A DNA stretch of 64,000 nucleotides. Origin: an uncultured Alphaproteobacteria bacterium. Lineage in GTDB: Bacteria; Pseudomonadota; Alphaproteobacteria; Rhizobiales; Xanthobacteraceae. Shown piece after piece: positions 1 to 9,193 of this stretch; the first letter of the stretch is position 1, and every line of letters starts with the position of its first letter. Below the pieces are notes generated by a model. That model ran no database searches, was not told the DNA's origin, and saw only the letters and a list, made by a program, of their open reading frames with translations. The stretch spans positions 17,145 to 81,144 of the forward strand of contig CAVPFZ010000016.1 of NCBI GenBank assembly GCA_963703875.1. Direction: 5' to 3'. Both the position numbers and the translations under genes were made by a program.

Positions 1-39
1 AGTCACTCCAATCACAGCAGCGAATAAGCGCATAGACAT
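1..39 (-). CDS. 5' end of a probable secreted protein running off the left edge (MSMRLFAAVIGVT...)
   Basis: Minus-strand ATG at 39 preceded by GGAGAG; signal-peptide-like start; only 13 codons visible. Confidence 0.35.
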   Translation of the reverse strand, partial: MSMRLFAAVIGVT

Positions 40-284
40 TAGTCTCTCCATTGCCATAGTTGGAATTTTTCAGATGAAATCCGAGCCGATGAGACGATCT
101 CAGTTTTCTGGTCGCACGGAGATCAGATGCGAGTGGCAAGAGTGTCAGAAGGAAGCGTTACTTTGAGGCGATTGAAAAACTTGTTCATTCGCCATCGATA
201 ACGCCGGTAGAAAAGCTAGTATACGACAATTTTCGGCAACAGCTCTAAACATGTGTGGGTTCTCGCCGTGGAGGAGAATATCCT

Positions 285-313
285 TTGACATCAGAGTGCC
301 TGCAACCTAGCCT
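285..313 (+). promoter_or_regulatory. Sigma70-type promoter of graspetide precursor A
   Basis: TTGACA (285-290), 17 nt, TAGCCT (308-313); AGGGAG RBS at 351-356 before ATG 364. Confidence 0.6.
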
Positions 314-363
314 TTTATGTGCAATCGGTTTGGTTGTGCTGAGCGATTTGAGGGAGAAAGCGC

Positions 364-678
364 ATGAAGAATACAATTGGAATGTGCCGTTTAGTCATCC
401 GGCGTATTTTGGGCATTATCGGAGTGGCCGCAGCCGGTACCGGGTTGGTATCGATCGCAAGTAGCCAAGTTTTTGCGCATCAGTTTCTCCAAGAAATGGC
501 ACCAGGACCAAATCTTGGAATGGTGTACAGCTCGGAGCTGCAACTCATGGTCAAGCCTGGGACCACCGATCCGGTATATGGCAAAGCGTCACCGGGTTCG
601 CTCAAGGTGGCGGGGACCAATGCCGTGACGCAAGGGTCCGGACCTAACGGCCAAGGCCCGCACCACGACGACGACTGA
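364..678 (+). CDS. Graspetide precursor peptide A (104 aa) with signal-peptide-like N-terminus
   Basis: Directly upstream of ATP-grasp ligase; FAHQFL and YSSELQ leader-like motifs; C-terminal core GTNAVTQGSGPNGQGPHHDDD with Thr/Ser donors and terminal Asp acceptors; good RBS. Confidence 0.85.
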   Translation: MKNTIGMCRLVIRRILGIIGVAAAGTGLVSIASSQVFAHQFLQEMAPGPNLGMVYSSELQLMVKPGTTDPVYGKASPGSLKVAGTNAVTQGSGPNGQGPHHDDD

Positions 679-704
679 CGCTAACGTCGAAATCAATTGC
701 GGCG

Positions 705-751
705 ACGCCGGTTCGGAACCGGCGTGCGTCGCGACAATATAGTCGCGACGC
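705..751 (+). promoter_or_regulatory. Two tandem perfect hairpins between precursor A and ligase
   Basis: ACGCCGGTT-cgg-AACCGGCGT (705-725) then GCGTCGCGAC-aatata-GTCGCGACGC (726-751); no U-tract. Confidence 0.6.
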
Positions 752-766
752 CAAGGTGCGCTGCGT

Positions 767-1723
767 ATGAAGACAATTCTGCTCATCACTGAACAATTTG
801 ATCCGACCGCAGATAACTTAATTCAAGTTTTGCGGCAGCGCGGCTGCCCAGTGCTGCGATGGAATCTCGACCGATATCCGCAGGACTCGACGCTGACCTA
901 TCGCGTCACGGCGCATGAGTTCGGTGGCTCAATTGCCACCGAAGGCCGGCTCGTGCCCTTCGACCTCATTGGCAGCGTCTGGTACCGCGCCTCGCGTTGC
1001 CGTGGTTTTCCAGCCGGCCTTAATTCCGAAGAACTCGCGTTCGCCGCACGCGAGGCCGAAAGCGCGCTGAACTCCCTACCGCTGGTCACCGATTGGCGTT
1101 GGCTCAATGAACCGCGGCGCCATCGCGACGCAACGTGGAAGCCAGCGCAGCTTGCTATAGCGCGCCGACTGGGGCTGGCCATCCCGCGCACGGTCATCAC
1201 CAATGATCCGGCCGTGGTCACGGCTTTCCGCGAAGAATGTGGCGGCACGATCATCTTTAAATCGCTGTCGCAGACGTTGGGTCTCGAGCCAGGCAAAGCG
1301 GCCTTCACCGCCGTCGTAACGGACGAGGTGTTATCGTCACTAAGCCTTATCCGGCATACACCCGGAATATTCCAGGAGCTCGTTCCCAAGAATTTCGAAG
1401 TTCGGCTTACCGTTGTAGCGGACAAAATGTTCGCGGCGAAAATTATGTCGCAGCAAAATGAACTTACAAAGATCGACTGGCGAATTGCACCCCACGACGT
1501 AAAATACGAACCAGTTGAGTTACCAGCCGATATTCGCGACAAGGTTCGCGCCTTCATGGCCGAAACCGGACTGACCTACAGCTGCATTGATTTCATCGTC
1601 ACGCCCGAAGGCCGTCACATCTTCCTAGAAAGCAACCCACGCGGTCAGTATCTTTGGATTGAGCATTACACCGGTATGAAAATCACCGATGCGATCGCCG
1701 ACGCACTTATGGCGAAGTTATAG
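767..1723 (+). CDS. MvdC/MvdD-family ATP-grasp RiPP ligase 1
   Basis: N-terminal LLITEQFDPTAD, WLNEP..KPAQLAIARRLGLAIPRTVITN, IIFKSL, IFQELVPK.FEVR, IDWR, IDFIVTPEG..FLESNPRGQYLW. Confidence 0.92.
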   Translation: MKTILLITEQFDPTADNLIQVLRQRGCPVLRWNLDRYPQDSTLTYRVTAHEFGGSIATEGRLVPFDLIGSVWYRASRCRGFPAGLNSEELAFAAREAESALNSLPLVTDWRWLNEPRRHRDATWKPAQLAIARRLGLAIPRTVITNDPAVVTAFREECGGTIIFKSLSQTLGLEPGKAAFTAVVTDEVLSSLSLIRHTPGIFQELVPKNFEVRLTVVADKMFAAKIMSQQNELTKIDWRIAPHDVKYEPVELPADIRDKVRAFMAETGLTYSCIDFIVTPEGRHIFLESNPRGQYLWIEHYTGMKITDAIADALMAKL

Positions 1724-1775
1724 TCGGGTTTCGCGCTATGTTAGCGAACCCTGCTGACCAGCACTCGATGGCCCC

Positions 1776-2822
1776 TTGACCATAGATAACCACAGAAAAA
1801 ATGCTAGTCGCGGGTACGGGAGAACCGCCGCCGGGCTGAATCCAATAGCAATCGCCGCCGCGCCTTCGGGAGACTTTATCTACGTTGCAAATTGGGGTGC
1901 GCACGATATTTCCGCATACCGGATAGATCGCACCTCAGGCGCGCTTATGCCCATCGCGCGCTCACCTTTCAGAACCGGGCGGTGGCCGCATTCTCTCGCA
2001 ATCGCGCCTTCCGGCCGATTTTTATATTCGGCCAACGGCGACTCTAATGATGTATCGGCGTTCAGTATCGATCAAACAACGGGATCGCTTGAGCAGATGA
2101 AGGGCTCTCCCTACCCGGCGGGCAACCATCCAGAGTCCGTTACCATTTCTCCCTCTGGTGAATTTGCTTACGTATGTAACGGATTCGGCGGTAATATCTC
2201 TGGGTATCAAATCGACAGCTTAGGCGGCGGCTTGCGCGAGCTTCCCGGTTCGCCATTTCAATCGGGCGAAAAACCTTTGGCGCTGGCGGTCGAACCATCG
2301 GGCCGTTTTGCCTATGTTGCCAACCGCCGATCAGATATCTGGGCCTATCGGATTGACGCTGGAATTCTTCGGCCTGCCCCAGGATCTCCCTATCCAGCCG
2401 GGAAGGGGCCAACTGCAATCGCAATCCATCCGTCGGGGCAATTCATCTATTTTGCCAATTTCAAGTCCGACGACGTCGGCGCCTACCAAATCGACCGTAA
2501 CAGCGGCGCGCTCACGCCGTTGCCCGCCGCCCCTTATCGCAGTGAGGGCAAGGTGCCCATCGGCATCGCGGTCGATCCGAAGGGTGAATTCTTGTTCGTT
2601 GCCAATGGAGAATCCGACGGCATCGCGGTTTGCCGGCTTGCTCCCTCGACAGGCGTGCCCGTTGCAGTCGCAGGGAGTCCATTTCAGAGTGGCCGTATGC
2701 CGTGCGGCATAATAGCGGACCCGGGGGGCCGATTTCTGTACGCGACGAACTGGATTTCCAATGATGTGTCGTGCTGGCGGATTGAGCGATCAATAAGCGT
2801 ATTGATACCGGCGGGAAATTGA
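1776..2822 (+). CDS. Seven-bladed beta-propeller, lactonase (6-phosphogluconolactonase/YVTN-like) family
   Basis: Seven repeats of G-x-x-P-x-x-(I/L/V)-x-(I/V/A)-x-P-x-G-x-F-x-(Y/F)-x-x-N, linked by GSPY/FPAG; start codon uncertain (TTG). Confidence 0.8.
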   Translation: MTIDNHRKNASRGYGRTAAGLNPIAIAAAPSGDFIYVANWGAHDISAYRIDRTSGALMPIARSPFRTGRWPHSLAIAPSGRFLYSANGDSNDVSAFSIDQTTGSLEQMKGSPYPAGNHPESVTISPSGEFAYVCNGFGGNISGYQIDSLGGGLRELPGSPFQSGEKPLALAVEPSGRFAYVANRRSDIWAYRIDAGILRPAPGSPYPAGKGPTAIAIHPSGQFIYFANFKSDDVGAYQIDRNSGALTPLPAAPYRSEGKVPIGIAVDPKGEFLFVANGESDGIAVCRLAPSTGVPVAVAGSPFQSGRMPCGIIADPGGRFLYATNWISNDVSCWRIERSISVLIPAGN

Positions 2823-2866
2823 TCATCACCGGACAAGGCAAGCCGCGCGTCCCAAATGGTTCGGAT

Positions 2867-3829
2867 CTACCACCGCGGTTGCGGGCAACTCACGCACGGT
2901 GTGTTTGGGTTAATTTCGTAAACAATTTTCGCCATCAGACCTTCGGTCGAATCGGGATCCAGCCAGCCCCATTCACCGTTGTAGTTGGCCTCAAGAAACG
3001 TGTAGCGGTCGTCCTTGCGTAGAAAGTCGATCCTGGCAAAATGTTGACCCACTTCAGACATAAATCTGAAAATCCCAACTTCTAGTTCCTGGGGGATGCT
3101 GGCGCGCTTCCAGCCCCGATGTGAATAGACGAATGGTGCTCGACGCCAGTCGATCGTTTTGTCGACAAAACTTGTGCGATCGAGCTCGAATGCAAACAGT
3201 TGATCGCGGACCACCGCAACCGTGACATCATGTGTGGCATCTATGAAATCAGTGAGAAACCATGGTTGCGCCGGGTCAAGGTCCCCCTCATCTACTTTCG
3301 AACTATAAAATCCGACGCCATCGGCGTATTTGAAATTGAAGCTTTTGCAAACCGAAATGGTTCCGGGGCGCAAACGGTCGCCCCGATTGAGGACGAAACT
3401 GTAAGGCGTGATTTCGAAATATTTTGGTGCGACTCGCAGTTGCTGTAGCTTTCCCGACCGCAAGGTGCCAAGCGGTTGGCTCAGGACGATTTTTCCCTGG
3501 TGCCAGAAGATATTGAAAAGATCGGCCCATGCAGCATAAACCTCTTCTTCAGCGTAACGCTCGAGGTCGGTCATTTTCGTTTGCGGAAATATCACGGAGC
3601 CGCGCATCGACGAACGTCGATAAACCTTCGCGATGTCGGAATCGGTGACTTTGCGGCCGGTCGGGTCGGAAATCTCTATTCCCGCCGATGAAAAGTAAAA
3701 TGCGTAGTCACGCCACAGATCGGTGTTGTAGCGAAACAATCGATCACTGCCTAATTGGGCTACCAGCAAATCCGCAAGATAGTCGATCGAGTTCGTAATC
3801 AACAAAGTGACTTGCGGCATTGGCGTCAT
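2867..3829 (-). CDS. Divergent ATP-grasp RiPP ligase 2
   Basis: LLITNSIDYLAD, KLQQL, VCKS, IDWRR, IDFLRKDDRYTFLEANYNGEWGWLD; adjacent to precursor B. Confidence 0.85.
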   Translation of the reverse strand: MTPMPQVTLLITNSIDYLADLLVAQLGSDRLFRYNTDLWRDYAFYFSSAGIEISDPTGRKVTDSDIAKVYRRSSMRGSVIFPQTKMTDLERYAEEEVYAAWADLFNIFWHQGKIVLSQPLGTLRSGKLQQLRVAPKYFEITPYSFVLNRGDRLRPGTISVCKSFNFKYADGVGFYSSKVDEGDLDPAQPWFLTDFIDATHDVTVAVVRDQLFAFELDRTSFVDKTIDWRRAPFVYSHRGWKRASIPQELEVGIFRFMSEVGQHFARIDFLRKDDRYTFLEANYNGEWGWLDPDSTEGLMAKIVYEINPNTPCVSCPQPRW

Positions 3830-3851
3830 TAATTTTTTGTCCGTCTATCGT

Positions 3852-3896
3852 CTGACAAAAACAAACTTCCCGCCACGGCAGGGCCGAAGCGGGAAG
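3852..3896 (-). terminator. Intrinsic terminator between precursor B and ligase 2
   Basis: CTTCCCGC...GCGGGAAG stem (3866-3896) with inner CGGC/GCCG pairs, followed on minus strand by TTTGTTTTTG. Confidence 0.65.
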
Positions 3897-3936
3897 CGGT
3901 TGAACTCAGATCGCAAAAACCAAACAAAGACCGAGA

Positions 3937-4167
3937 CTACTCGTCCTTTTCTCCATCGAAGCCCGTGCTGCTGGTCGGCGCACCGGTCGTCATCATCAGC
4001 TGACGAATTTTCTCGCTCTCAGTCCAGCGGCGGGTCTGCGTGACGTAGTCATACGAGCAATTCGGCATTTCTGAGCGCCACAAGAAAGTTTCCTCCGGCT
4101 TCGCGTTGATGAGGTCAGCCGGTGTCAACTTCGCCTTTGCGCCAGTTTGAATTTGGATGTGGCTCAT
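3937..4167 (-). CDS. Graspetide precursor peptide B (76 aa)
   Basis: RBS GAGGGG; TFLWR..EMP..YDYVTQ leader-like motif; core TTGAPTSSTGFDGEKDE; upstream of ligase 2. Confidence 0.85.
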   Translation of the reverse strand: MSHIQIQTGAKAKLTPADLINAKPEETFLWRSEMPNCSYDYVTQTRRWTESEKIRQLMMTTGAPTSSTGFDGEKDE

Positions 4168-4207
4168 AAATATGGTCCCCTCTTCCCAGAATATGAATTA
4201 GTACACC

Positions 4208-4237
4208 AAGCTAGCTCTGGAGTTCCCTCCCTGTCAA
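4208..4237 (-). promoter_or_regulatory. Sigma70-type promoter of precursor B
   Basis: Minus strand TTGACA (4237-4232), 18 nt, TAGCTT (4213-4208). Confidence 0.5.
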
Positions 4238-4322
4238 GGCAACCCGATTGCTTAAGCCTGGGAAAACTCTAGTATTATGAGCGGCTTAGGGTGATTTACG
4301 TGAAGAGCCAACGGCGCGACTG

Positions 4323-6101
4323 TTGAAAATCCAACACTGGCCGAGTGCCTTCCGGTCAAAAGCGAGTTTGCAAATGGACGGCATTCACCTGAGCAGGTGG
4401 TGTCTGCGACAGATTTTGCCGGCCTTGATCATGGGCTCGATCCTTTTGCTATTGGCGACGGCGGCGAATGTATCGGCGGCCCTCCTGTTTCAACCACTAT
4501 TCGACAGGGGCGTTCTCGGCGAAAAGGGCTCGATACTGATTTCGGTTATTGGTTTGCAGATTGGGCTTTTTCTCGCACGTGGGATATTGGCTGGCTTCGC
4601 ATTCGATCTTTTCGCGCGGGCAAGTGCGCGAATTGGCCAAAATCTTACCCTGAAACTTTTCGATCACCTCCAGATCCATTCATTGTCTTATTTCCTCGAT
4701 CATCCGCAGGCGCGCCTGCTCCAGTTGCTTCGTAACGATGTAGTGGTGCTCGAAGTGAACCTTGGACAAACACTGGGCCAAGGAATCATAGCCACATTGC
4801 AAACAGCGCTGACGTTGGTCGTGATCGTGATGTGGGAGCCGCGGCTTGCGCTCCTTTGCGTCGTCGGCCTTGGCGTCGGCGCGGCGCTCATTTGGCTTGC
4901 ATCCCGCCTTACGAATCGGGCGCTCGCAAACGAAATTGGGGCCAATGAACTTGTTGCAGAGCATCTACTGCTGATGCTCAGCCTGCGCGGATTTTTTCTT
5001 CGCGCCAGTGCATCGCCTGGTTGGGGACGGACGCGCCTGCAGCAATTGTTGGCGCGCTATCGCAATCTGCTCGTCCGCCGACGCGTGCTGCCGAATTGGG
5101 TGATGGTCGCGGGCGAAGGCGTCAGCACCGCCACCTATTTCTGTTTCTATCTTACAGGGATCTATCTCGTCGCCGGTGGCGGCACGACGATAGGCTCGTT
5201 AATCGCAATGGCCGCGCTCGTGAGTTTTCTCATCGGATCCATGAATCAGCTCGCGCCGACCTATGTTGGACTAGGTGACGCCTGGCTACGTCTCGGCCGC
5301 ATGGAAAAAGAACTATCAACAGCTCCATCGCGGCGCGAAATCGCGGGCGCTCTGGACCCACAGACACTACACGGCGCGTTCGCACTGGAGCACGTTACCG
5401 TCCGTTATCGCGACGCGGTTGCCCTGAACGACGTATCGGTCGCTATCCACCCGGGTAGAATTACCGCCGTTATCGGAAGCAGTGGTGCGGGAAAAACCAC
5501 GCTGACGCTGCTTCTGCTCGGGCTGATAGAGCCAGAGGCCGGCTTAGTAACTGTCGACGGGGTTGCGGTCGAGAAATATCGGCGCGGAGCATTGTGGCGC
5601 CATATTGGATATGTGCCGCAAGAACCCGTCTTGTTCCGCGGTTCATCGCGGGAAAACATTATGGTCGGAAGACCGATTTCGGATTCAGAGATTATTACCG
5701 CCAGCACCAAGGTCGGTACTCATGATCGGCTTGCTGCGGCGGCGGGCGGATACGACGCCGATCTCGGCGAGAATGGCTTTCGCCTTTCGGGCGGCGAGCG
5801 ACAGCGCATCAGTTTCGCGCGTGTGTTGGCCGGCCGACCAGCCGTGTTAGTCCTCGACGAGCCGACCGCCAATCTCGACGCCTTAACGGAGGCCTTAATT
5901 CGTAAGACGGTTATTGATCAACGCGACGCCGGTCGAACGATCATCGTCGTTTCGCATAACCCGGAAATGGTGGCCATCGCTGATGATGTAATCTGGCTTG
6001 ATAAGGGAAGCCTCGTCTGCAGCGGGTCAACACAAGACCCCAAAATACAAGCGCGGCTGGTTGACCGATATTTCACTCAAAGAGACGTGCGCCCTTGTTG
6101 A
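4323..6101 (+). CDS. ABC exporter, fused TMD-NBD, no peptidase domain
   Basis: Hydrophobic TMD, Walker A GSSGAGKT, LSGGERQR signature, Walker B VLVLDEPT, VSH; start may be ATG 4374. Confidence 0.92.
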   Translation: MKIQHWPSAFRSKASLQMDGIHLSRWCLRQILPALIMGSILLLLATAANVSAALLFQPLFDRGVLGEKGSILISVIGLQIGLFLARGILAGFAFDLFARASARIGQNLTLKLFDHLQIHSLSYFLDHPQARLLQLLRNDVVVLEVNLGQTLGQGIIATLQTALTLVVIVMWEPRLALLCVVGLGVGAALIWLASRLTNRALANEIGANELVAEHLLLMLSLRGFFLRASASPGWGRTRLQQLLARYRNLLVRRRVLPNWVMVAGEGVSTATYFCFYLTGIYLVAGGGTTIGSLIAMAALVSFLIGSMNQLAPTYVGLGDAWLRLGRMEKELSTAPSRREIAGALDPQTLHGAFALEHVTVRYRDAVALNDVSVAIHPGRITAVIGSSGAGKTTLTLLLLGLIEPEAGLVTVDGVAVEKYRRGALWRHIGYVPQEPVLFRGSSRENIMVGRPISDSEIITASTKVGTHDRLAAAAGGYDADLGENGFRLSGGERQRISFARVLAGRPAVLVLDEPTANLDALTEALIRKTVIDQRDAGRTIIVVSHNPEMVAIADDVIWLDKGSLVCSGSTQDPKIQARLVDRYFTQRDVRPC

Positions 6102-6113
6102 ATTCTATAAATC

Positions 6114-6144
6114 TCAAACGCAGCCGCGGTGGTAACCGCGCTGC
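6114..6144 (+). repeat. GC-rich hairpin element copy 1 (terminator-like, between convergent genes)
   Basis: TCAAACGCAGCCGCGGTGGTAACCGCGCTGC; 27/31 identical to reverse complement of 7720-7750. Confidence 0.6.
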
Positions 6145-6186
6145 CTCGCGATGTGGAAACAAAGTCCGATAGAGATTAGAAGGACA

Positions 6187-6834
6187 CTAGTTCTGGATCC
6201 CGTCACCTCGTAATAGTTTAAGTGTATCCGAGCTTATCGAGGTTTGACTTTTTCTATGAATTTCAACTCGCTGATCGGCAGACAGGAAATCGCTCTGCGG
6301 CAAGTGTCTGCTTTCCAAAAACCGTCTTATTGCCCTGCGCGTACTTGGCCCAAACTTGCCGTCTTTAGCGCCATTAAAAAAGCCAAATGCAGTCAGCCCC
6401 TGTTGAATATCGGCGCGTGCTTCGGGAGGGAGATTGGCTTCGGCCAATGCGTCACCTTGTAATAGAGCAAAAAATTCCGTTGCCCGTTGATGAATCGCGT
6501 CGAGAATGCATTCCCTATCGCTGGGCGCAAAGTCTATTTGATCTTTCTTTAATCCGCATTCCCTAGCCAATGCCTTAAACCATTTCCTCTGAGCTTGATC
6601 GAATACCTTTCTTTTATTTTCCGCTATCGAGAAATACCGCGCCCAAAATGCAGAAGTAAGGCCCCAGTCCGCTTCCGCTCCCTCTTGGTCATTGCAGAGG
6701 ATCCGTCGCACGCTATCTCTGGCATATTTACAATTGAAGGTCGGATTGGCGGAAAGTGGTTGGCTGTACGCCGAATATGTTATTATGGCCAATGTTGAGC
6801 CAACGAGTGCGATGAAAACATTTGCGCGCCTCAT
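6187..6834 (-). CDS. Secreted LprI-like (PxFxC) domain plus peptidoglycan-binding domain protein
   Basis: Signal peptide; PTFNC...ILC, QRKW...C...C; C-terminal IQQGLTAFGF..DGKFGPSTRRAIRRF. Confidence 0.75.
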   Translation of the reverse strand: MRRANVFIALVGSTLAIITYSAYSQPLSANPTFNCKYARDSVRRILCNDQEGAEADWGLTSAFWARYFSIAENKRKVFDQAQRKWFKALARECGLKKDQIDFAPSDRECILDAIHQRATEFFALLQGDALAEANLPPEARADIQQGLTAFGFFNGAKDGKFGPSTRRAIRRFLESRHLPQSDFLSADQRVEIHRKSQTSISSDTLKLLRGDGIQN

Positions 6835-6973: not shown

Positions 6974-7258
6974 TTATTTGCAGCTAACAGCAACACAGGC
7001 AGAGTTCGAGCTGTCCTGGCTTGGGCACGAAACGCAACGCATCTTGCCTGCGTCGTTCACGCATATGCCAAAATATGAGCCGTTAGGCTGCTTGTTCCAG
7101 TTGCAGGAATTGGCTGCCTGCGCGGCGGCCGTCAAAGACGCCGAAGCCCAAAGACACATGCCCAACGCAAGTAAATATTCTTTGAAGACATTCTTAGAGG
7201 TACAAGCTGCTGCGTGCATCGCTGTCTCCTCGGTGGTGGGTTGGAGTTCTGCACTCAC
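6974..7258 (-). CDS. Small secreted Cys-rich protein
   Basis: LALGMCLWASASLTAAAQAA signal; 6 Cys in ~43-aa mature part; true start may be internal. Confidence 0.6.
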   Translation of the reverse strand: MSAELQPTTEETAMHAAACTSKNVFKEYLLALGMCLWASASLTAAAQAANSCNWNKQPNGSYFGICVNDAGKMRCVSCPSQDSSNSACVAVSCK

Positions 7259-7266
7259 AATCAGTC

Positions 7267-7656
7267 CTAAAATTTTGTAGCTGGCGCATTACCAACAGTG
7301 CAGGCAAAATTGTGTATGCTGTTACTTTCAGTTACACCGCTCAAATAATGCCATTCATCGTGGATACTTAAATTCCCTGACGTTCGATTTAGATCATATA
7401 TTTGGACTGCTGTGCCGGGGTTAGATGGAGGGCATTCAGTCCCGCACACCAGGCTGTGCTCCCAATGCATCGAAGTTGCGTTGATTCTCGCTGGGTAGTT
7501 GTTAACGGACCTGTTCGTTAGATCAACGGTTAAGGTCTCAGCATCGGTATTGCTTGCGCTTGGGCATTTGAGAAATATCGTGTTTGCGAAGGCCGGGAAT
7601 GAAGCGGCCACTATCGCTATTGTAGCACAAAAAACTACGACCTTAATCTTGAGCAT
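7267..7656 (-). CDS. Secreted hypothetical protein (4 Cys in mature part)
   Basis: RBS GGAGGGG; signal peptide ending FPAFA. Confidence 0.7.
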   Translation of the reverse strand: MLKIKVVVFCATIAIVAASFPAFANTIFLKCPSASNTDAETLTVDLTNRSVNNYPARINATSMHWEHSLVCGTECPPSNPGTAVQIYDLNRTSGNLSIHDEWHYLSGVTESNSIHNFACTVGNAPATKF

Positions 7657-7710
7657 TGCACCCCTCCTTGCCTGGTAGTTCGTTCATTGAGAAAATTTCT
7701 CGGCCTTATG

Positions 7711-7750
7711 AGAAAAAGCGCAGCGCGGTTATCGCCGCGACTGCGCTTGA
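7711..7750 (-). terminator. Hairpin element copy 2, intrinsic terminator of 7792-8067
   Basis: AAGCGCAG-CGCGG...CCGCG-A-CTGCGCTT stem followed on minus strand by TTTTT. Confidence 0.65.
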
Positions 7751-7791
7751 GGCGTTGGTCAGACTAAGTCCGCTAGAAAGTTAGTAGGACG

Positions 7792-8067
7792 CTAATTGCA
7801 AGTTTGACCATCACAGTGCCCATTTGCGTCCCAATGGCTGCAGCGACAGTGTCCGAATTGAGCGATGCGGCTGTGATTTGATGTTTGAGTAGTGGGGCAG
7901 AATGCTGCCGAAGCCGGATTTCCAGCGGCGACGATGGCCGAACCTGTTGATGCGAGCGATACCCCGCAGCTCAGGGATAGAAACAGCACTGAATATGCGA
8001 CGAGACGAATAGAGTGGGTAGTCATGAAGTCCCCCTTCGCTGCCCAATGATCGAACGTGGTCATCAC
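7792..8067 (-). CDS. Small secreted protein with Cys/His-rich C-terminus
   Basis: Signal-like VAYSVLFLSLSCGVSLA; tail HCRCSHWDANGHCDGQTCN; start probably internal Met (MTTHS). Confidence 0.55.
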   Translation of the reverse strand: MMTTFDHWAAKGDFMTTHSIRLVAYSVLFLSLSCGVSLASTGSAIVAAGNPASAAFCPTTQTSNHSRIAQFGHCRCSHWDANGHCDGQTCN

Positions 8068-8374: not shown

Positions 8375-9193
8375 CTAGGGTCTGGACTCACAATTTGATC
8401 CAGTAGAGTGCACTGATGAGCATGGTCGCGGCAAGAAAATTGCGAGCGAGCTTATCGTAGCGGGTAGCGATACGCCGCCAATCCTTGATGCGGCAGAAGA
8501 AGTTTTCGATTTTGCGTCGCCGCCGGTAGAAGCGCTTGGGGCAATAGGCTTTCCGGGTGGCGTTGCTACGATTGGGGATGACAGGCAAGGCGCCTTCGTC
8601 CCTGATCTGTTGTCGCGCTTTTTCGCTGTCGTAGACCTTGTCAGCCGTGACAGCCAGCGGCGGTCGTGGCGTATTCAGTATCTCTTCGACGACTTGGCTG
8701 TCATGGACCTGTCCGCCCGTCACCAAGAAGCTTAGCGGCCGGCCCTTGCTGTCGACAACCGCGTGGATTTTCGTGGTTCGGCCGCCCCGGCTGATACCGA
8801 TCGCCTGATTTTTCTCCCCCCTTTTGCGCCGCTCGCCGCACGGTGAGCCTTCACAATAGTGCTATCGATCAGATACAGGCCGTCACGCCAATTGGTCGAA
8901 TACACGCTTCCAAATACCGCGGCGAGACCACCGGTTGAAGCGATTATAAGCCGTCGTGTAGGGGCCATAGCGTGCCGGCAGATCCCGCCATGGCATTCCG
9001 GTCCGCAGCACGTAAAAGATCGCATTCATGATCTTGCGATCGTCCACTCGCGCGCTCTTTCGGCTCCGCGGCAGCAGCGCTTCGAGCAGCGCCCAATCCT
9101 CATCGCTCAGATCAAATCGCATGACCCACCTCCGCGCACGGTGAATCATGTTCGCTCAAACTATTCAATCATCTATCTGGGTACAGACCCTAG
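8375..9193 (-). mobile_element. IS5-family (IS427-group-like) insertion sequence, disrupted transposase
   Basis: Ends CTAGGGTCTGGACTCA and (rc) CTAGGGTCTGTACCCA, 14/16 match incl. flanking CTAG; orfA LRTGMPWRDLP..YG; AAAAGGGGGG slippage site; orfB IDST, ADKVYD, RRKIENFFCRIKDWRRIATRYDK; extra frameshift with TGA at 8883. Confidence 0.9.

What the first reader, a model, noticed from the sequence alone, without database searches (positions are those of the whole stretch)
364..678. Graspetide precursor carrying an apparent Sec signal peptide
Residues 1-38 have a basic n-region (K2,R9,R13,R14), a hydrophobic stretch (ILGIIGVAAAGTGLVSI) and a V-F-A cleavage-like site, directly before HQFLQE. The only strong RBS is at codon 1 and a start at M45 would lose the FxxxFL motif, so the extension looks real. 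ATP-grasp ligases need cytoplasmic ATP, so this suggests modify-then-export by Sec, membrane tethering, or signal peptidase acting in leader removal. Signal-bearing bacterial RiPP precursors are known for bufferins; I know of no graspetide case. The core T85-x3-T89...D102-104 recalls fuscimiditide-type stem-loop cores (from memory, unverified).
Basis: partly seen in the sequence, partly recalled or inferred. Interest (0 to 1): 0.8.

Follow-up and report, generated by a model that had tools for sequence, protein, structure and literature searches.

The report
Graspetide precursor with an export signal
A small conserved gene next to a peptide-cyclising ATP-grasp enzyme encodes a peptide precursor that starts with a genuine-looking export signal, and most of its relatives carry the twin-arginine (Tat) type, which would show how this group of cross-linked peptides leaves the cell without a transporter of its own.

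Summary
ORF 364-678 is a real 104-aa gene under purifying selection. It has a conserved Shine-Dalgarno site at codon 1 and sits directly upstream of an MvdD/MdnC-type ATP-grasp RiPP maturase.

Residues 1-38 form a basic n-region, an 18-residue hydrophobic h-region and a V-F-A cleavage-type site. All 31 close homologues examined and all 36 family representatives examined keep this extension. Ala38, the -1 position, is the only invariant column in the family.

The conserved cassette is precursor plus ligase only. The nearby ABC exporter belongs to the second, signal-less graspetide system.

New here: 20 of 36 representatives carry a canonical twin-arginine motif (RR-x-Phi-L-K), 18 of those 20 also have a basic residue in the c-region, and several hit Tat-signal HMMs. 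The window's own clade has lost the motif register and the basic c-region residue, and its h-region is among the most hydrophobic. A relaxed, Sec-like signal is therefore somewhat more likely here than Tat.

I found no published graspetide with a signal peptide and no natural Tat-signal RiPP. Export, cleavage and cross-linking are all inferred, and no trained signal predictor could be run. Verdict: new variant of a known kind, interest about 0.7.

The parts
351..356 (+). Shine-Dalgarno site AGGGAG, 7 nt before ATG364
   Evidence: Sequence. GGGAG(A/G)A-N6-ATG is conserved in 6 loci, with 85% identity over 350-366 against 52% over 300-345.
364..678 (+). Precursor A gene, 104 aa plus stop
   Evidence: Conserved family, always directly upstream of an ATP-grasp ligase in every locus long enough to show it.
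364..405 (+). Signal n-region, codons 1-14 (MKNTIGMCRLVIRR), net charge +4, ending in R13-R14
   Evidence: R14 is present in 30/31 and R13 in 27/31 close homologues. In the family alignment the canonical twin-arginine columns correspond to I12-R13, with R14 at the 'x' position.
406..459 (+). Signal h-region, codons 15-32 (ILGIIGVAAAGTGLVSIA)
   Evidence: Mean Kyte-Doolittle hydrophobicity 2.12, joint highest of 36 representatives. The best 10-residue window scores 2.61, second highest. Third-codon-position bias is 119:61:32. AlphaFold2 predicts a helix over residues 3-26.
460..477 (+). Signal c-region, codons 33-38 (SSQVFA); predicted signal peptidase I cut after Ala38, between bases 477 and 478
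   Evidence: Position -1 is Ala in 36/36, -2 is Phe in 35/36, and -3 is V/L/I/A. Q35-V-F-A-H39 is invariant in 31 close homologues.
469..492 (+). Conserved motif V-F-A-H-Q-F-L-Q straddling the cut site; candidate ligase-docking helix resembling microviridin PFFARFL
   Evidence: Family consensus is [VLI]-F-A-x-Q-F-[LA]. AlphaFold2 predicts a helix over residues 33-43. PFFARFL as the ligase-binding helix is from PMC8939145.
478..576 (+). Conserved leader region, codons 39-71, including the beta-hairpin M53-V63 (bases 520-552)
   Evidence: 83% pairwise identity among close homologues, the highest of any region. pLDDT is 91-93 for residues 51-70, with strands at 54-56 and 61-63. In relatives this region is the part that matches TIGR04186 GRASP_targ at profile positions ~15-64.
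577..615 (+). Variable linker, codons 72-84
   Evidence: 57% identity and only 21% of differing codons synonymous. It is replaced by Pro-rich inserts of up to ~40 residues in relatives.
616..675 (+). Core peptide, codons 85-104 (TNAVTQGSGPNGQGPHHDDD), with candidate ester donors T85 and T89 and acceptors D102 and D104
   Evidence: T89, V88, P94 and G98 are invariant or nearly so, and D102 is nearly invariant. 66% of differing codons are synonymous. The cross-links themselves are inferred.
698..765 (+). Conserved intergenic double RNA hairpin between precursor and ligase
   Evidence: Fold energy -48.6 kcal/mol, z -4.28, and 0 of 200 shuffles fold as well. 87% identity over 698-750, with a compensatory pair in L004. 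No T-tract follows.
767..1723 (+). Ligase 1, a cytoplasmic ATP-grasp RiPP maturase (318 aa, no signal)
   Evidence: PF21068 3.8e-9. TIGR04187 1.4e-86, scoring 290.6 bits against a cut-off of 350. Best PDB matches are 5ig9 (annotated 'ATP grasp ligase') at 2.5e-41 and CdnC 7mgv. It fails the signal heuristic.

Best explanation
ORF 364-678 encodes a graspetide precursor whose first 38 residues are a cleavable signal for the cell's general export machinery.

Proposed sequence of events:
1. The full-length peptide is made in the cytoplasm.
2. The signal-less ATP-grasp ligase 1 binds the conserved leader. The leader consists of the V-F-A-x-Q-F-L helix that overlaps the end of the signal, plus the M-x-Y-x-x-x-L-Q-x-M-V hairpin.
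3. The ligase esterifies Thr89 (and Thr85) to Asp102 (and Asp104), closing a Gly/Pro-rich loop.
4. The modified peptide crosses the inner membrane.
5. Signal peptidase I cuts after the invariant Ala38 and releases a 66-residue periplasmic product starting HQFLQE.

No dedicated exporter or leader protease is needed, and none is conserved with this cassette.

The family's signal is of Tat type in most lineages. In the window's own clade the twin-arginine register and the basic c-region residue are lost and the hydrophobic core is stronger. For this member I judge Sec, or a relaxed dual route, somewhat more likely than Tat.

Shown here by computation: gene reality, conservation, signal anatomy, ligase linkage and the absence of an exporter. 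Inferred: export, the cut site, the order modify-then-export, and the ester topology.
For: - Real, selected gene with a conserved RBS.
- An ATP-grasp maturase lies directly downstream in the window and in 16 other loci (L002-L015, L019, L025).
- The n/h/c architecture is kept in 31/31 aligned close homologues and 36/36 representatives. Position -1 is Ala in 36/36 and -3 is V/L/I/A.
- Flanking charges are +4 on the N side and about -1 on the C side, which predicts N-in, C-out.
- Relatives match TIGR04186 GRASP_targ only downstream of the signal, so the signal is an N-terminal addition to a normal graspetide precursor.
- Propeller, ligase 2, precursor B and the ABC exporter are absent from 14 related loci. 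The exporter instead accompanies the signal-less precursor B and ligase 2 in L021 and L023.
- Sec-leaning features of this member:
  - RR is off-register.
  - R13 is lost in 4/31 close homologues, and half of the clade's representatives have a single R.
  - Q replaces K/R at -4.
  - The h-region is the most or second most hydrophobic of 36.
  - The clade is monophyletic on the ligase tree, support 97/99.
- Precedent that cytoplasmic RiPP modification can precede Sec export: bufferins (PMC11626156).
- A relative's gene is present in a peat metatranscriptome.
Against: - No trained predictor (SignalP, TatP, DeepTMHMM) could be run. My heuristic is crude.
- The window protein itself hits no signal or precursor HMM.
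- Invariance of F37-A38 could reflect ligase docking rather than a peptidase site. AlphaFold2 puts the site inside a helix.
- An 18-24-residue uncharged stretch could equally be an uncleaved anchor.
- A 14-20-residue macrolactone may be a poor SecY substrate (stated for macrocycles in PMC11626156). That argues for Tat, or for export before cyclisation being impossible.
- There are no expression, export or mass-spectrometry data for any member.
Confidence: 0.5

Rival explanations
1. Same biology, but the route is Tat. The precursor is cyclised in the cytoplasm and then exported in its cross-linked state by the twin-arginine translocase, using R13-R14. Ligase binding across the end of the signal delays export until modification is complete, in the way Tat proofreading chaperones (TorD, DmsD) act on cofactor enzymes.
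For: - 20/36 representatives have in-register RR-x-Phi-L-K, for example SRRDFLKG, RRRFLS and DRRRFLKQ, and 26/36 have some RR at the n/h border. In signal-like N-termini of this genome the figures are 7% and 18%.
- 18/20 canonical members have K/R in the c-region, against 3/16 of the others (Fisher p = 2e-5, not corrected for phylogeny).
- 17/36 have K/R at +1.
- Signal lengths are 33-45 residues.
- HMM hits: TIGR02811 formate_TAT in 17/36 (best 8.7e-6), TIGR01409 in 11/36, and PF25471 or PF10518 in several. P0179 scores 20.5 bits against the 16.7 cut-off.
- Four genomes of the same order carry perfect [ST]-R-R-R-F-L-[KR] precursors next to ligases.
- The window protein does have RR, kept in 26/31 close homologues.
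- TatC is present in the genome.
- Tat accepts folded or cross-linked cargo, which removes the SecY pore problem.
Against: - In the family register, the window's clade has I-R at the twin-arginine positions.
- R13 is G or Q in 4/31 close homologues, and 5 of 10 clade representatives have a single R, yet their genes are intact.
- This clade has no basic c-region residue.
- The h-region is the most Sec-like in the family.
- The window protein gives no TIGR01409 or PF10518 hit even at E = 10.
- Most relatives are below the TIGR01409 cut-off.
Confidence: 0.28
2. The N-terminal segment is an uncleaved signal-anchor. The peptide stays tethered in the inner membrane (N-in, C-out) with the cyclised core displayed in the periplasm.
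For: - The uncharged stretch I15-A38 is 24 residues, long enough to span the membrane.
- 5/36 relatives weakly match the uncleaved Rieske Tat anchor model PF25471 TM_PetC.
- AlphaFold2 models the region as two helices, residues 3-26 and 33-43, without an extended cleavage region.
Against: - Invariant Ala at -1 with small or aliphatic residues at -3, and a polar 6-residue c-region, fit the peptidase I rule.
- Gly-rich h-regions of 12-19 residues in relatives are short and weakly hydrophobic for a stable anchor.
Confidence: 0.12
3. The hydrophobic N-terminus is not an export signal. It is an extended leader that docks on the ligase or holds the precursor at the cytoplasmic face of the membrane, and the product is released by lysis or by an unlinked transporter.
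For: - The most conserved residues (F37, A38, Q40, F41) resemble the microviridin PFFARFL docking helix (PMC8939145).
- Most non-microviridin graspetide clusters have no known export route (bioRxiv 10.1101/2023.06.21.545981).
Against: - The h-region drifts in sequence while keeping hydrophobicity, as signals do.
- Tat motifs and Tat HMM hits have no role in ligase docking.
- The actinobacterial GRASP_targ model aligns only to the part of these precursors that follows the signal, so docking does not seem to require this segment.
Confidence: 0.07
4. The ORF is an ordinary small secreted protein that merely neighbours the ligase, and it is not the ligase's substrate.
For: The window protein has no direct HMM match to a precursor family.
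Against: - Strict adjacency and co-orientation in all loci with enough sequence, across ligases from 39% to 100% identity.
- The precursor sequence classes track the ligase tree.
- Thr and Asp are conserved in a C-terminal core.
- 12/36 relatives match TIGR04186 and 5/36 match PF14404.
Confidence: 0.03

Closest known systems
Fuscimiditide / graspimiditide systems (ThfA precursor, ThfB ligase; NCBIfam TIGR04186 GRASP_targ and TIGR04187)
   Same: The best-matching ligase family is TIGR04187 (1.4e-86). Relatives of the precursor match TIGR04186 and PF14404 after the signal. Both have a long leader, a short C-terminal core with T-x3-T donors and terminal Asp acceptors around a Pro/Gly-rich loop, and no dedicated protease or exporter (bioRxiv 10.1101/2021.05.19.444834).
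   Different: Scores are below both curated cut-offs. There is no PIMT-type O-methyltransferase. Acceptors are spaced D-x-D rather than D-x3-D. The hosts are Alphaproteobacteria, not Actinobacteria. About 30 residues of n- and h-region are added in front of the leader, which those precursors lack.
Bufferins (BufA precursors, MNIO-modified; PMC11626156) and related Sec- or lipoprotein-signal MNIO RiPPs (PMC13056109)
   Same: The RiPP precursor carries a general-secretion signal, is modified in the cytoplasm by a signal-less enzyme, is exported to the periplasm and is cut by signal peptidase. The product is a mini-protein of about 60-70 residues.
   Different: The enzyme class differs completely (ATP-grasp macrolactonisation versus MNIO/DUF2063 thiooxazole formation). 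The signals here are mostly Tat-like. Here a macrocycle is made before export, which the bufferin authors argue would suit Sec poorly.
Microviridin system (MdnA with MdnB/MdnC, ABC exporter with C39 peptidase)
   Same: The closest solved ligase structure is 5ig9 (an ATP-grasp ligase; microviridin MdnC by my recollection) at 2.5e-41. Both have an aromatic amphipathic leader helix: PFFARFL there, VFAHQFL here.
   Different: Microviridin leaders have no signal peptide, and export and cleavage use a dedicated transporter. Here the helix overlaps a signal-peptidase-type site and no transporter is linked.
Tat substrates with signal-binding proofreading chaperones (TorA/TorD, DmsA/DmsD)
   Same: The logic is the same: a cytoplasmic maturation step must finish before export, and a cytoplasmic protein binds at or next to the twin-arginine signal.
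   Different: Those are cofactor-containing enzymes with dedicated chaperones. Here the cargo is a ribosomal peptide and the supposed hold-back factor is the modifying ligase itself. This is an analogy from general knowledge and was not tested.

Membership tests
Graspetide (ATP-grasp-modified RiPP) precursor | Encoded next to an MvdD/MdnC-type ATP-grasp peptide maturase | tested here: met
   PF21068 and TIGR04187/04184/04185 hits. PDB matches 5ig9, CdnC (7mgv) and 5ig8. Adjacency holds in 16 further loci.
Graspetide (ATP-grasp-modified RiPP) precursor | C-terminal core with conserved Thr/Ser donors and Asp/Glu acceptors | tested here: met
   T85 and T89 are nearly invariant or invariant, D102 is nearly invariant, and D/E104 is common.
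Graspetide (ATP-grasp-modified RiPP) precursor | Side-chain ester or amide macrocycles actually installed | not testable with these tools
   Needs co-expression and mass spectrometry or NMR.
TIGR04186 GRASP_targ / TIGR04187 (SAV_5884, graspimiditide-type) system | HMM scores above the curated cut-offs | tested here: not met
   Ligase scores 290.6 bits against 350. The window precursor gives no hit. The best relative scores 21.5 bits against 25.
TIGR04186 GRASP_targ / TIGR04187 (SAV_5884, graspimiditide-type) system | PIMT-like O-methyltransferase (TIGR04188) in the cluster | tested here: not met
   None of the ORFs scanned in window 1-6900 matches a methyltransferase family, and none of the called genes in L002-L006 or L012-L015 carries a methyltransferase Pfam family.
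Sec-type (signal peptidase I) signal peptide | Positively charged n-region, hydrophobic h-region, polar c-region with small residues at -3 and -1 | tested here: met
   Net charge +4. The 18-residue h-region has mean KD 2.12. The c-region is SSQ-V-F-A. Ala at -1 is present in 36/36.
Sec-type (signal peptidase I) signal peptide | High score from a trained predictor (SignalP, Phobius, DeepTMHMM) | not tested
Only my own crude heuristic was run.
Sec-type (signal peptidase I) signal peptide | Demonstrated export and cleavage | not testable with these tools
   Requires reporter fusions and N-terminal mass spectrometry.
Tat (twin-arginine) signal peptide | S/T-R-R-x-F-L-K motif at the n/h border | tested here: inconclusive
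   The window has I-R-R-I-L-G: RR is present but off the family register and lacks a polar -1 residue. The family is canonical in 20/36.
Tat (twin-arginine) signal peptide | TIGR01409 or PF10518 score above cut-off | tested here: not met
   The window protein gives no hit at E <= 10. Relative P0179 passes (20.5 against 16.7), P0180 scores 16.6, and the others score 11-15 bits.
Tat (twin-arginine) signal peptide | Basic 'Sec-avoidance' residue in the c-region | tested here: not met
   The window has SSQVFA. In the family, 18/20 canonical-RR members have K/R at -8 to -2, against 3/16 of the others.
Tat (twin-arginine) signal peptide | Tat translocase encoded in the genome | tested here: met
   TatC (PF00902), 236 bits, on contig C27.
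Bufferin-type signal-bearing RiPP | MNIO (DUF692) enzyme plus DUF2063 partner, and Cys-derived thiooxazoles | tested here: not met
   No such domains occur in the cassette. The resemblance is one of logic only.

The most novel reading that the evidence does not exclude
This small alphaproteobacterial family would be the first natural RiPP class routed through the Tat translocase. Peptides would be macrocyclised in the cytoplasm by an ATP-grasp ligase and then exported as cross-linked cargo. The ligase would bind a motif that overlaps the signal-peptidase site, acting as a built-in proofreading hold-back. One clade, the window's, would be in the process of switching from Tat to Sec. This gives a natural experiment on how export-pathway choice co-evolves with a post-translational macrocycle.
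Probability: 0.3. Interest if true: 0.85.

Novelty: new variant of a known kind. Interest (0 to 1): 0.7.

Why it matters
How most graspetides lose their leader and leave the cell is an open question. Outside the microviridins, clusters contain biosynthetic genes only (bioRxiv 10.1101/2023.06.21.545981).

This family offers a concrete and easily tested answer for one lineage: the precursor borrows the general export machinery and signal peptidase.

Signal-bearing RiPP precursors were described only from 2024, for MNIO-modified peptides, and were called highly unusual (PMC11626156, PMC12452194). Extending the idea to ATP-grasp chemistry broadens that principle. So does the likely use of the Tat route, which suits pre-folded and pre-cyclised cargo.

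It also has a practical consequence. Genome-mining pipelines that discard small ORFs with signal peptides will miss such precursors.

The family further suggests a compact two-gene cassette for delivering macrocyclic peptides to the periplasm.

Tried and rejected
- **HMM scans of the window's own protein.** Pfam and NCBIfam scans gave nothing useful, even at E = 10.
- **Hydrophobicity as a Tat/Sec discriminator.** The h-regions of canonical and non-canonical family members do not differ (1.68 against 1.63, p = 0.47). The genome's own RR and non-RR signal-like N-termini barely differ either (1.51 against 1.60). Only the rank of this member within the family is informative.
- **TIGR01409 as a formal Tat test.** It is too insensitive. 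Even perfect DRRRFLKQ-type sequences score 12-13 bits against a cut-off of 16.7.
- **Transcript evidence for the start site.** Only soil DNA metagenomes hold the locus. One peat metatranscriptome has a 197-nt contig from a relative covering bases 430-573. That shows expression but not the transcript's 5' end.
- **Alternative starts.**
  - M45 is rejected because it is not conserved and has no Shine-Dalgarno site.
  - M7 is not conserved and would keep the signal anyway.
- **Lipoprotein signal.** Rejected: there is no lipobox Cys after the h-region.
- **Alternative cut after S-I-A32.** Position 32 is variable (A/P/T/S/G), so this is less likely than a cut after A38.
- **ABC exporter 4323-6101 as the exporter of this precursor.** Rejected. 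It is absent from 14 related loci and travels with precursor B and ligase 2.
- **Beta-propeller 'lactonase' as a conserved partner.** Rejected for the same reason.
- **Literature.**
  - The Ramesh 2021 paper, the Choi and Link review, and the published fuscimiditide paper are not held.
  - The 174 precursor clusters of Makarova 2022 do not contain this family's motifs.
- **Direction of change on the ligase tree.** The three canonical-RR ligases form an unresolved polytomy, so 'Tat ancestral' is favoured but not shown.
Full report
**1. The observation**

It begins MKNTIGMCRLVIRR-ILGIIGVAAAGTGLVSIA-SSQVFA, followed by HQFLQE, and ends TNAVTQGSGPNGQGPHHDDD. AGGGAG lies 7 nt before the ATG. The frame is open for only four codons upstream.

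Six related loci aligned at the DNA level keep GGGAG(A/G)A-N6-ATG. Identity is 85% over the RBS and start codon but falls to 52% further upstream.

Within codons 15-32, differences between loci are concentrated at third codon positions (119, against 61 and 32 at positions 1 and 2). 55% of differing codons are synonymous. The hydrophobic segment is therefore translated and under purifying selection.

M45 is not conserved and has no ribosome-binding site.

A short contig from a peat metatranscriptome, belonging to a relative, covers bases 430-573. The gene family is therefore expressed. The transcript's 5' end is not visible.

**2. What surrounds it**

- 88 nt downstream lies a 318-aa ATP-grasp enzyme. 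It has the MvdD pre-ATP-grasp domain (PF21068) and strong matches to the RiPP maturase models: TIGR04187 at 1.4e-86, and TIGR04184 and TIGR04185 at about 1e-57.
- Its closest solved relative is 5ig9, annotated 'ATP grasp ligase', at 2.5e-41. By my recollection this is the microviridin ligase MdnC.
- The ligase has no signal sequence.
- Beyond it lie a seven-bladed 'lactonase' propeller and a second, very divergent ATP-grasp on the other strand with its own 76-aa precursor. An ABC exporter lies divergent from that precursor.

**3. Relatives keep the extension**

- A word-indexed search found 42 homologues, mostly 100-109 aa. The 31 that I aligned all carry the N-terminal segment.
- Ligase relatives at 50-65% identity each have a 102-129-aa ORF directly upstream with the same layout.
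- A profile search of 1.84 billion representative proteins found only 38 clusters. This is a small family.
- A pattern scan of 185,579 species genomes found 5 loci, from Bradyrhizobium-, Roseiarcus- and Alphaproteobacteria-labelled MAGs.
- A six-frame search found the family in 5 of 301 genomes of the order, in 4 of 130 genera.
- No homologue starts near residue 35.

**4. Anatomy across the family (alignment A3, 36 representatives)**

- The only invariant column is Ala38. Phe37 is present in 35/36.
- Position -3 is V/L/I/A.
- Position +1 is variable (R9, K8, G7, S6, H4).
- Position +2 is Gln in 27, +3 is Phe in 32, and +4 is Leu in 22.
- Before this motif comes an uncharged Gly/Ala/Thr-rich stretch of 12-24 residues that drifts in sequence, preceded by a basic n-region.
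- After it comes M-x-Y-D-P-x-L-Q-x-M-V-D-P-x-T-x-x-P. Next is a variable linker that is often Pro-rich. Last is a short core with conserved Thr-x-x-(V)-Thr and Asp.

AlphaFold2 with this alignment (mean pLDDT 69.7) gives:
- a helix at residues 3-26;
- a helix at residues 33-43, spanning the V-F-A|H-Q-F-L motif;
- a confident beta-hairpin at 54-63, with pLDDT 91-93 for residues 51-70;
- a disordered core.

Relatives weakly match the actinobacterial precursor models TIGR04186 (12/36) and PF14404 (5/36). These matches start only about eight residues after the cut site. The architecture is therefore an ordinary graspetide precursor with roughly 30 residues of n- and h-region added in front.

**5. 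Sec or Tat?**

Tat features in the family:
- In the family register, 20/36 representatives read RR-x-Phi-L-(K/R/S). Examples are SRRDFLKG, RRRFLS, ARRQVLKM and TRRRFLRQ.
- 26/36 have some RR at the n/h border.
- Four genomes of the same order carry [KRD]-[TSD]-R-R-R-F-L-[KR] precursors next to ligases.
- For scale, I applied a crude signal heuristic to this genome's approximately 3,466 ORFs. It found 538 signal-like N-termini, of which 18% have any RR and 7% have RR-x-Phi-Phi.
- Canonical-RR members nearly always have a basic residue in the c-region as well: 18/20 against 3/16 (Fisher p = 2e-5, not corrected for phylogeny). 17/36 have K/R at +1.
- Both features are known from the Tat literature as hallmarks that keep Tat signals out of Sec. 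This last point is my own knowledge.
- Signal lengths are 33-45 residues.
- HMM scans agree in direction, but mostly below threshold:
  - TIGR02811 formate_TAT in 17/36, best 8.7e-6;
  - TIGR01409 in 11/36, where P0179 scores 20.5 bits (cut-off 16.7) and P0180 scores 16.6;
  - PF25471 Rieske Tat anchor in 5;
  - PF10518 in 3.
- TatC is encoded in the genome.

The window's own clade differs. This clade has QVFAHQFLQ leaders and PNG...GP.D.D cores:
- In the family register its twin-arginine positions are I12-R13, with R14 at 'x'.
- Among 31 close homologues, R13 is Gly or Gln in four and R14 is Ser in one.
- Five of ten clade representatives have a single Arg.
- Position -4 is an invariant Gln rather than Lys or Arg.
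- The window protein has the joint-highest h-region hydrophobicity of the 36 (2.12) and the second-highest 10-residue window (2.61).
- On a ligase tree this clade is monophyletic (97/99). The three canonical-RR ligases lie outside it in an unresolved polytomy.

The simplest reading is a Tat-type ancestral signal that has relaxed toward Sec, or toward dual use, in this clade. I give about 50% to Sec or relaxed export for this member, 28% to Tat, 12% to an uncleaved anchor, and 10% to the non-export readings.

**6. No dedicated exporter**

tblastn of the window's propeller, ligase 2, precursor B and ABC exporter found none of them within 4-8 kb of precursor A and ligase 1 in 14 related loci. Gene tables show a bare two-gene cassette set in unrelated contexts.

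The exporter instead accompanies the signal-less precursor B and ligase 2:
- in the window;
- in L021, where the A cassette sits in a different order and orientation;
- in L023, a complete genome where ligase 2 is 44% identical.

The locus thus contains its own control. The precursor without a signal has a transporter. The precursor with a signal never does.

**7. Mechanism proposed**

The steps are marked as inferred in the explanation section:
1. Cytoplasmic synthesis.
2. The ligase docks on the helix that overlaps the end of the signal and on the hairpin.
3. Thr89 and Thr85 are esterified to Asp102 and Asp104, closing a 12-residue Gly/Pro-rich loop.
4. Export.
5. Signal peptidase I cuts after Ala38.
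6. A 66-residue periplasmic product is released.

Because the conserved motif straddles the cut site, only the uncleaved cytoplasmic form would be a ligase substrate. Bound ligase could also mask the signal until the reaction is finished. This is analogous to Tat proofreading chaperones and is an analogy only.

Several canonical-Tat subfamilies have even numbers of Cys in the core, for example TVTAGCxxCPKCDDxC. That fits either periplasmic disulfides or a metal site loaded before Tat export.

**8. Comparison with what is known**

- Fuscimiditide has esters T3-D22 and T7-D18 forming a stem-loop (bioRxiv 10.1101/2021.05.19.444834). Here the donors share the T-x3-T spacing, but the acceptors are D-x-D and only D102 is conserved. 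There is no O-methyltransferase, and both HMM cut-offs are missed. It works like that group but is not a member by the curated criteria.
- Bufferins are the experimental precedent for modify-then-Sec-export (PMC11626156). Their authors call signal-bearing RiPP precursors rare and note that macrocycles should be poor SecY substrates.
- Lipoprotein-signal MNIO RiPPs followed in 2026 (PMC13056109).
- My searches found no graspetide with a signal peptide and no natural Tat-signal RiPP.
- The family's motifs are absent from the 174 curated precursor clusters of Makarova et al. 2022, and from Pfam and NCBIfam.
I treat it as a parallel lead, not as support.

**9. Verdict**

This is a signal-bearing graspetide precursor, and a new variant of a known kind. 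The route for this particular member remains open.

The main weaknesses are that no trained signal predictor could be run, that most HMM support is sub-threshold, that the statistics are not corrected for phylogeny, and that there is no experimental evidence.

Noticed in passing
window 698-765: A conserved double RNA hairpin lies between the precursor stop codon and the ligase start. Fold energy is -48.6 kcal/mol with z -4.28. Identity across six loci is 87%, and L004 carries a compensatory G>A/C>T pair. No T-tract follows. It may stabilise the precursor transcript or attenuate read-through, and so set the precursor-to-ligase ratio.
   Followed up: partly
window 2867-6101; L021; L023: The ABC exporter (4323-6101, no C39 peptidase domain) travels with the signal-less precursor B (3937-4167, minus strand) and the divergent ligase 2 (2867-3829, minus strand), not with precursor A. 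The same unit occurs in L021 and in L023, a complete 7.5-Mb genome where ligase 2 is 44% identical. In L022 the ligase 2 relative sits beside a LanM-like lanthipeptide synthetase.
   Followed up: partly
window 1776-2822: The seven-bladed lactonase-type beta-propeller follows ligase 1 by 52 nt. It is absent from all 14 other precursor A / ligase 1 loci examined, so it is not a conserved partner of this system. Its role is unknown.
   Followed up: partly
window 1-6200 and 8388-9149; genome contig C16 14.6-16.4 kb: The twin graspetide cluster has 54.8% GC against 62.7% for the genome. Transposase-like ORFs lie on both sides, including an apparently frameshifted IS5-type pair at 8388-9149. Together with the patchy distribution (5 of 301 genomes of the order), this suggests horizontal acquisition.
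   Followed up: partly
P0171, P0177, P0178, P0180, P0182, P0184, P0185, P0193 (relatives); L025-L028: The canonical-Tat subfamilies have Cys-rich cores. One type is TVT(A/S)GCxxCPKCDDxC, with four Cys. The other is ...TRC(S/T)NMFYP..G.P.C..YDS(D/E)QDSHPDGFKPGE. These could form periplasmic disulfides or a metal site combined with Thr-Asp esters. Compare the Zn-tetracysteine cysimiditides (bioRxiv 10.1101/2024.10.02.616296).
   Followed up: no
P0163, P0164, P0167, P0169, P0180, P0182, P0185 (relatives): The linker between leader and core is replaced in some members by long poly-Pro or Lys/Pro/Glu-rich spacers of up to about 40 residues, which give spurious TonB hits. The distance between leader and core is therefore highly tolerant.
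   Followed up: no
L010 6001-7351: Both the precursor and the ligase in this long-read MAG are split by frame shifts. These are probably sequencing indels rather than pseudogenes.
   Followed up: no
window 6974-8067 (minus strand): Three small ORFs with signal-like N-termini and several Cys lie just beyond the cluster. They were also flagged by an earlier first-stage note and were not examined here.
   Followed up: no
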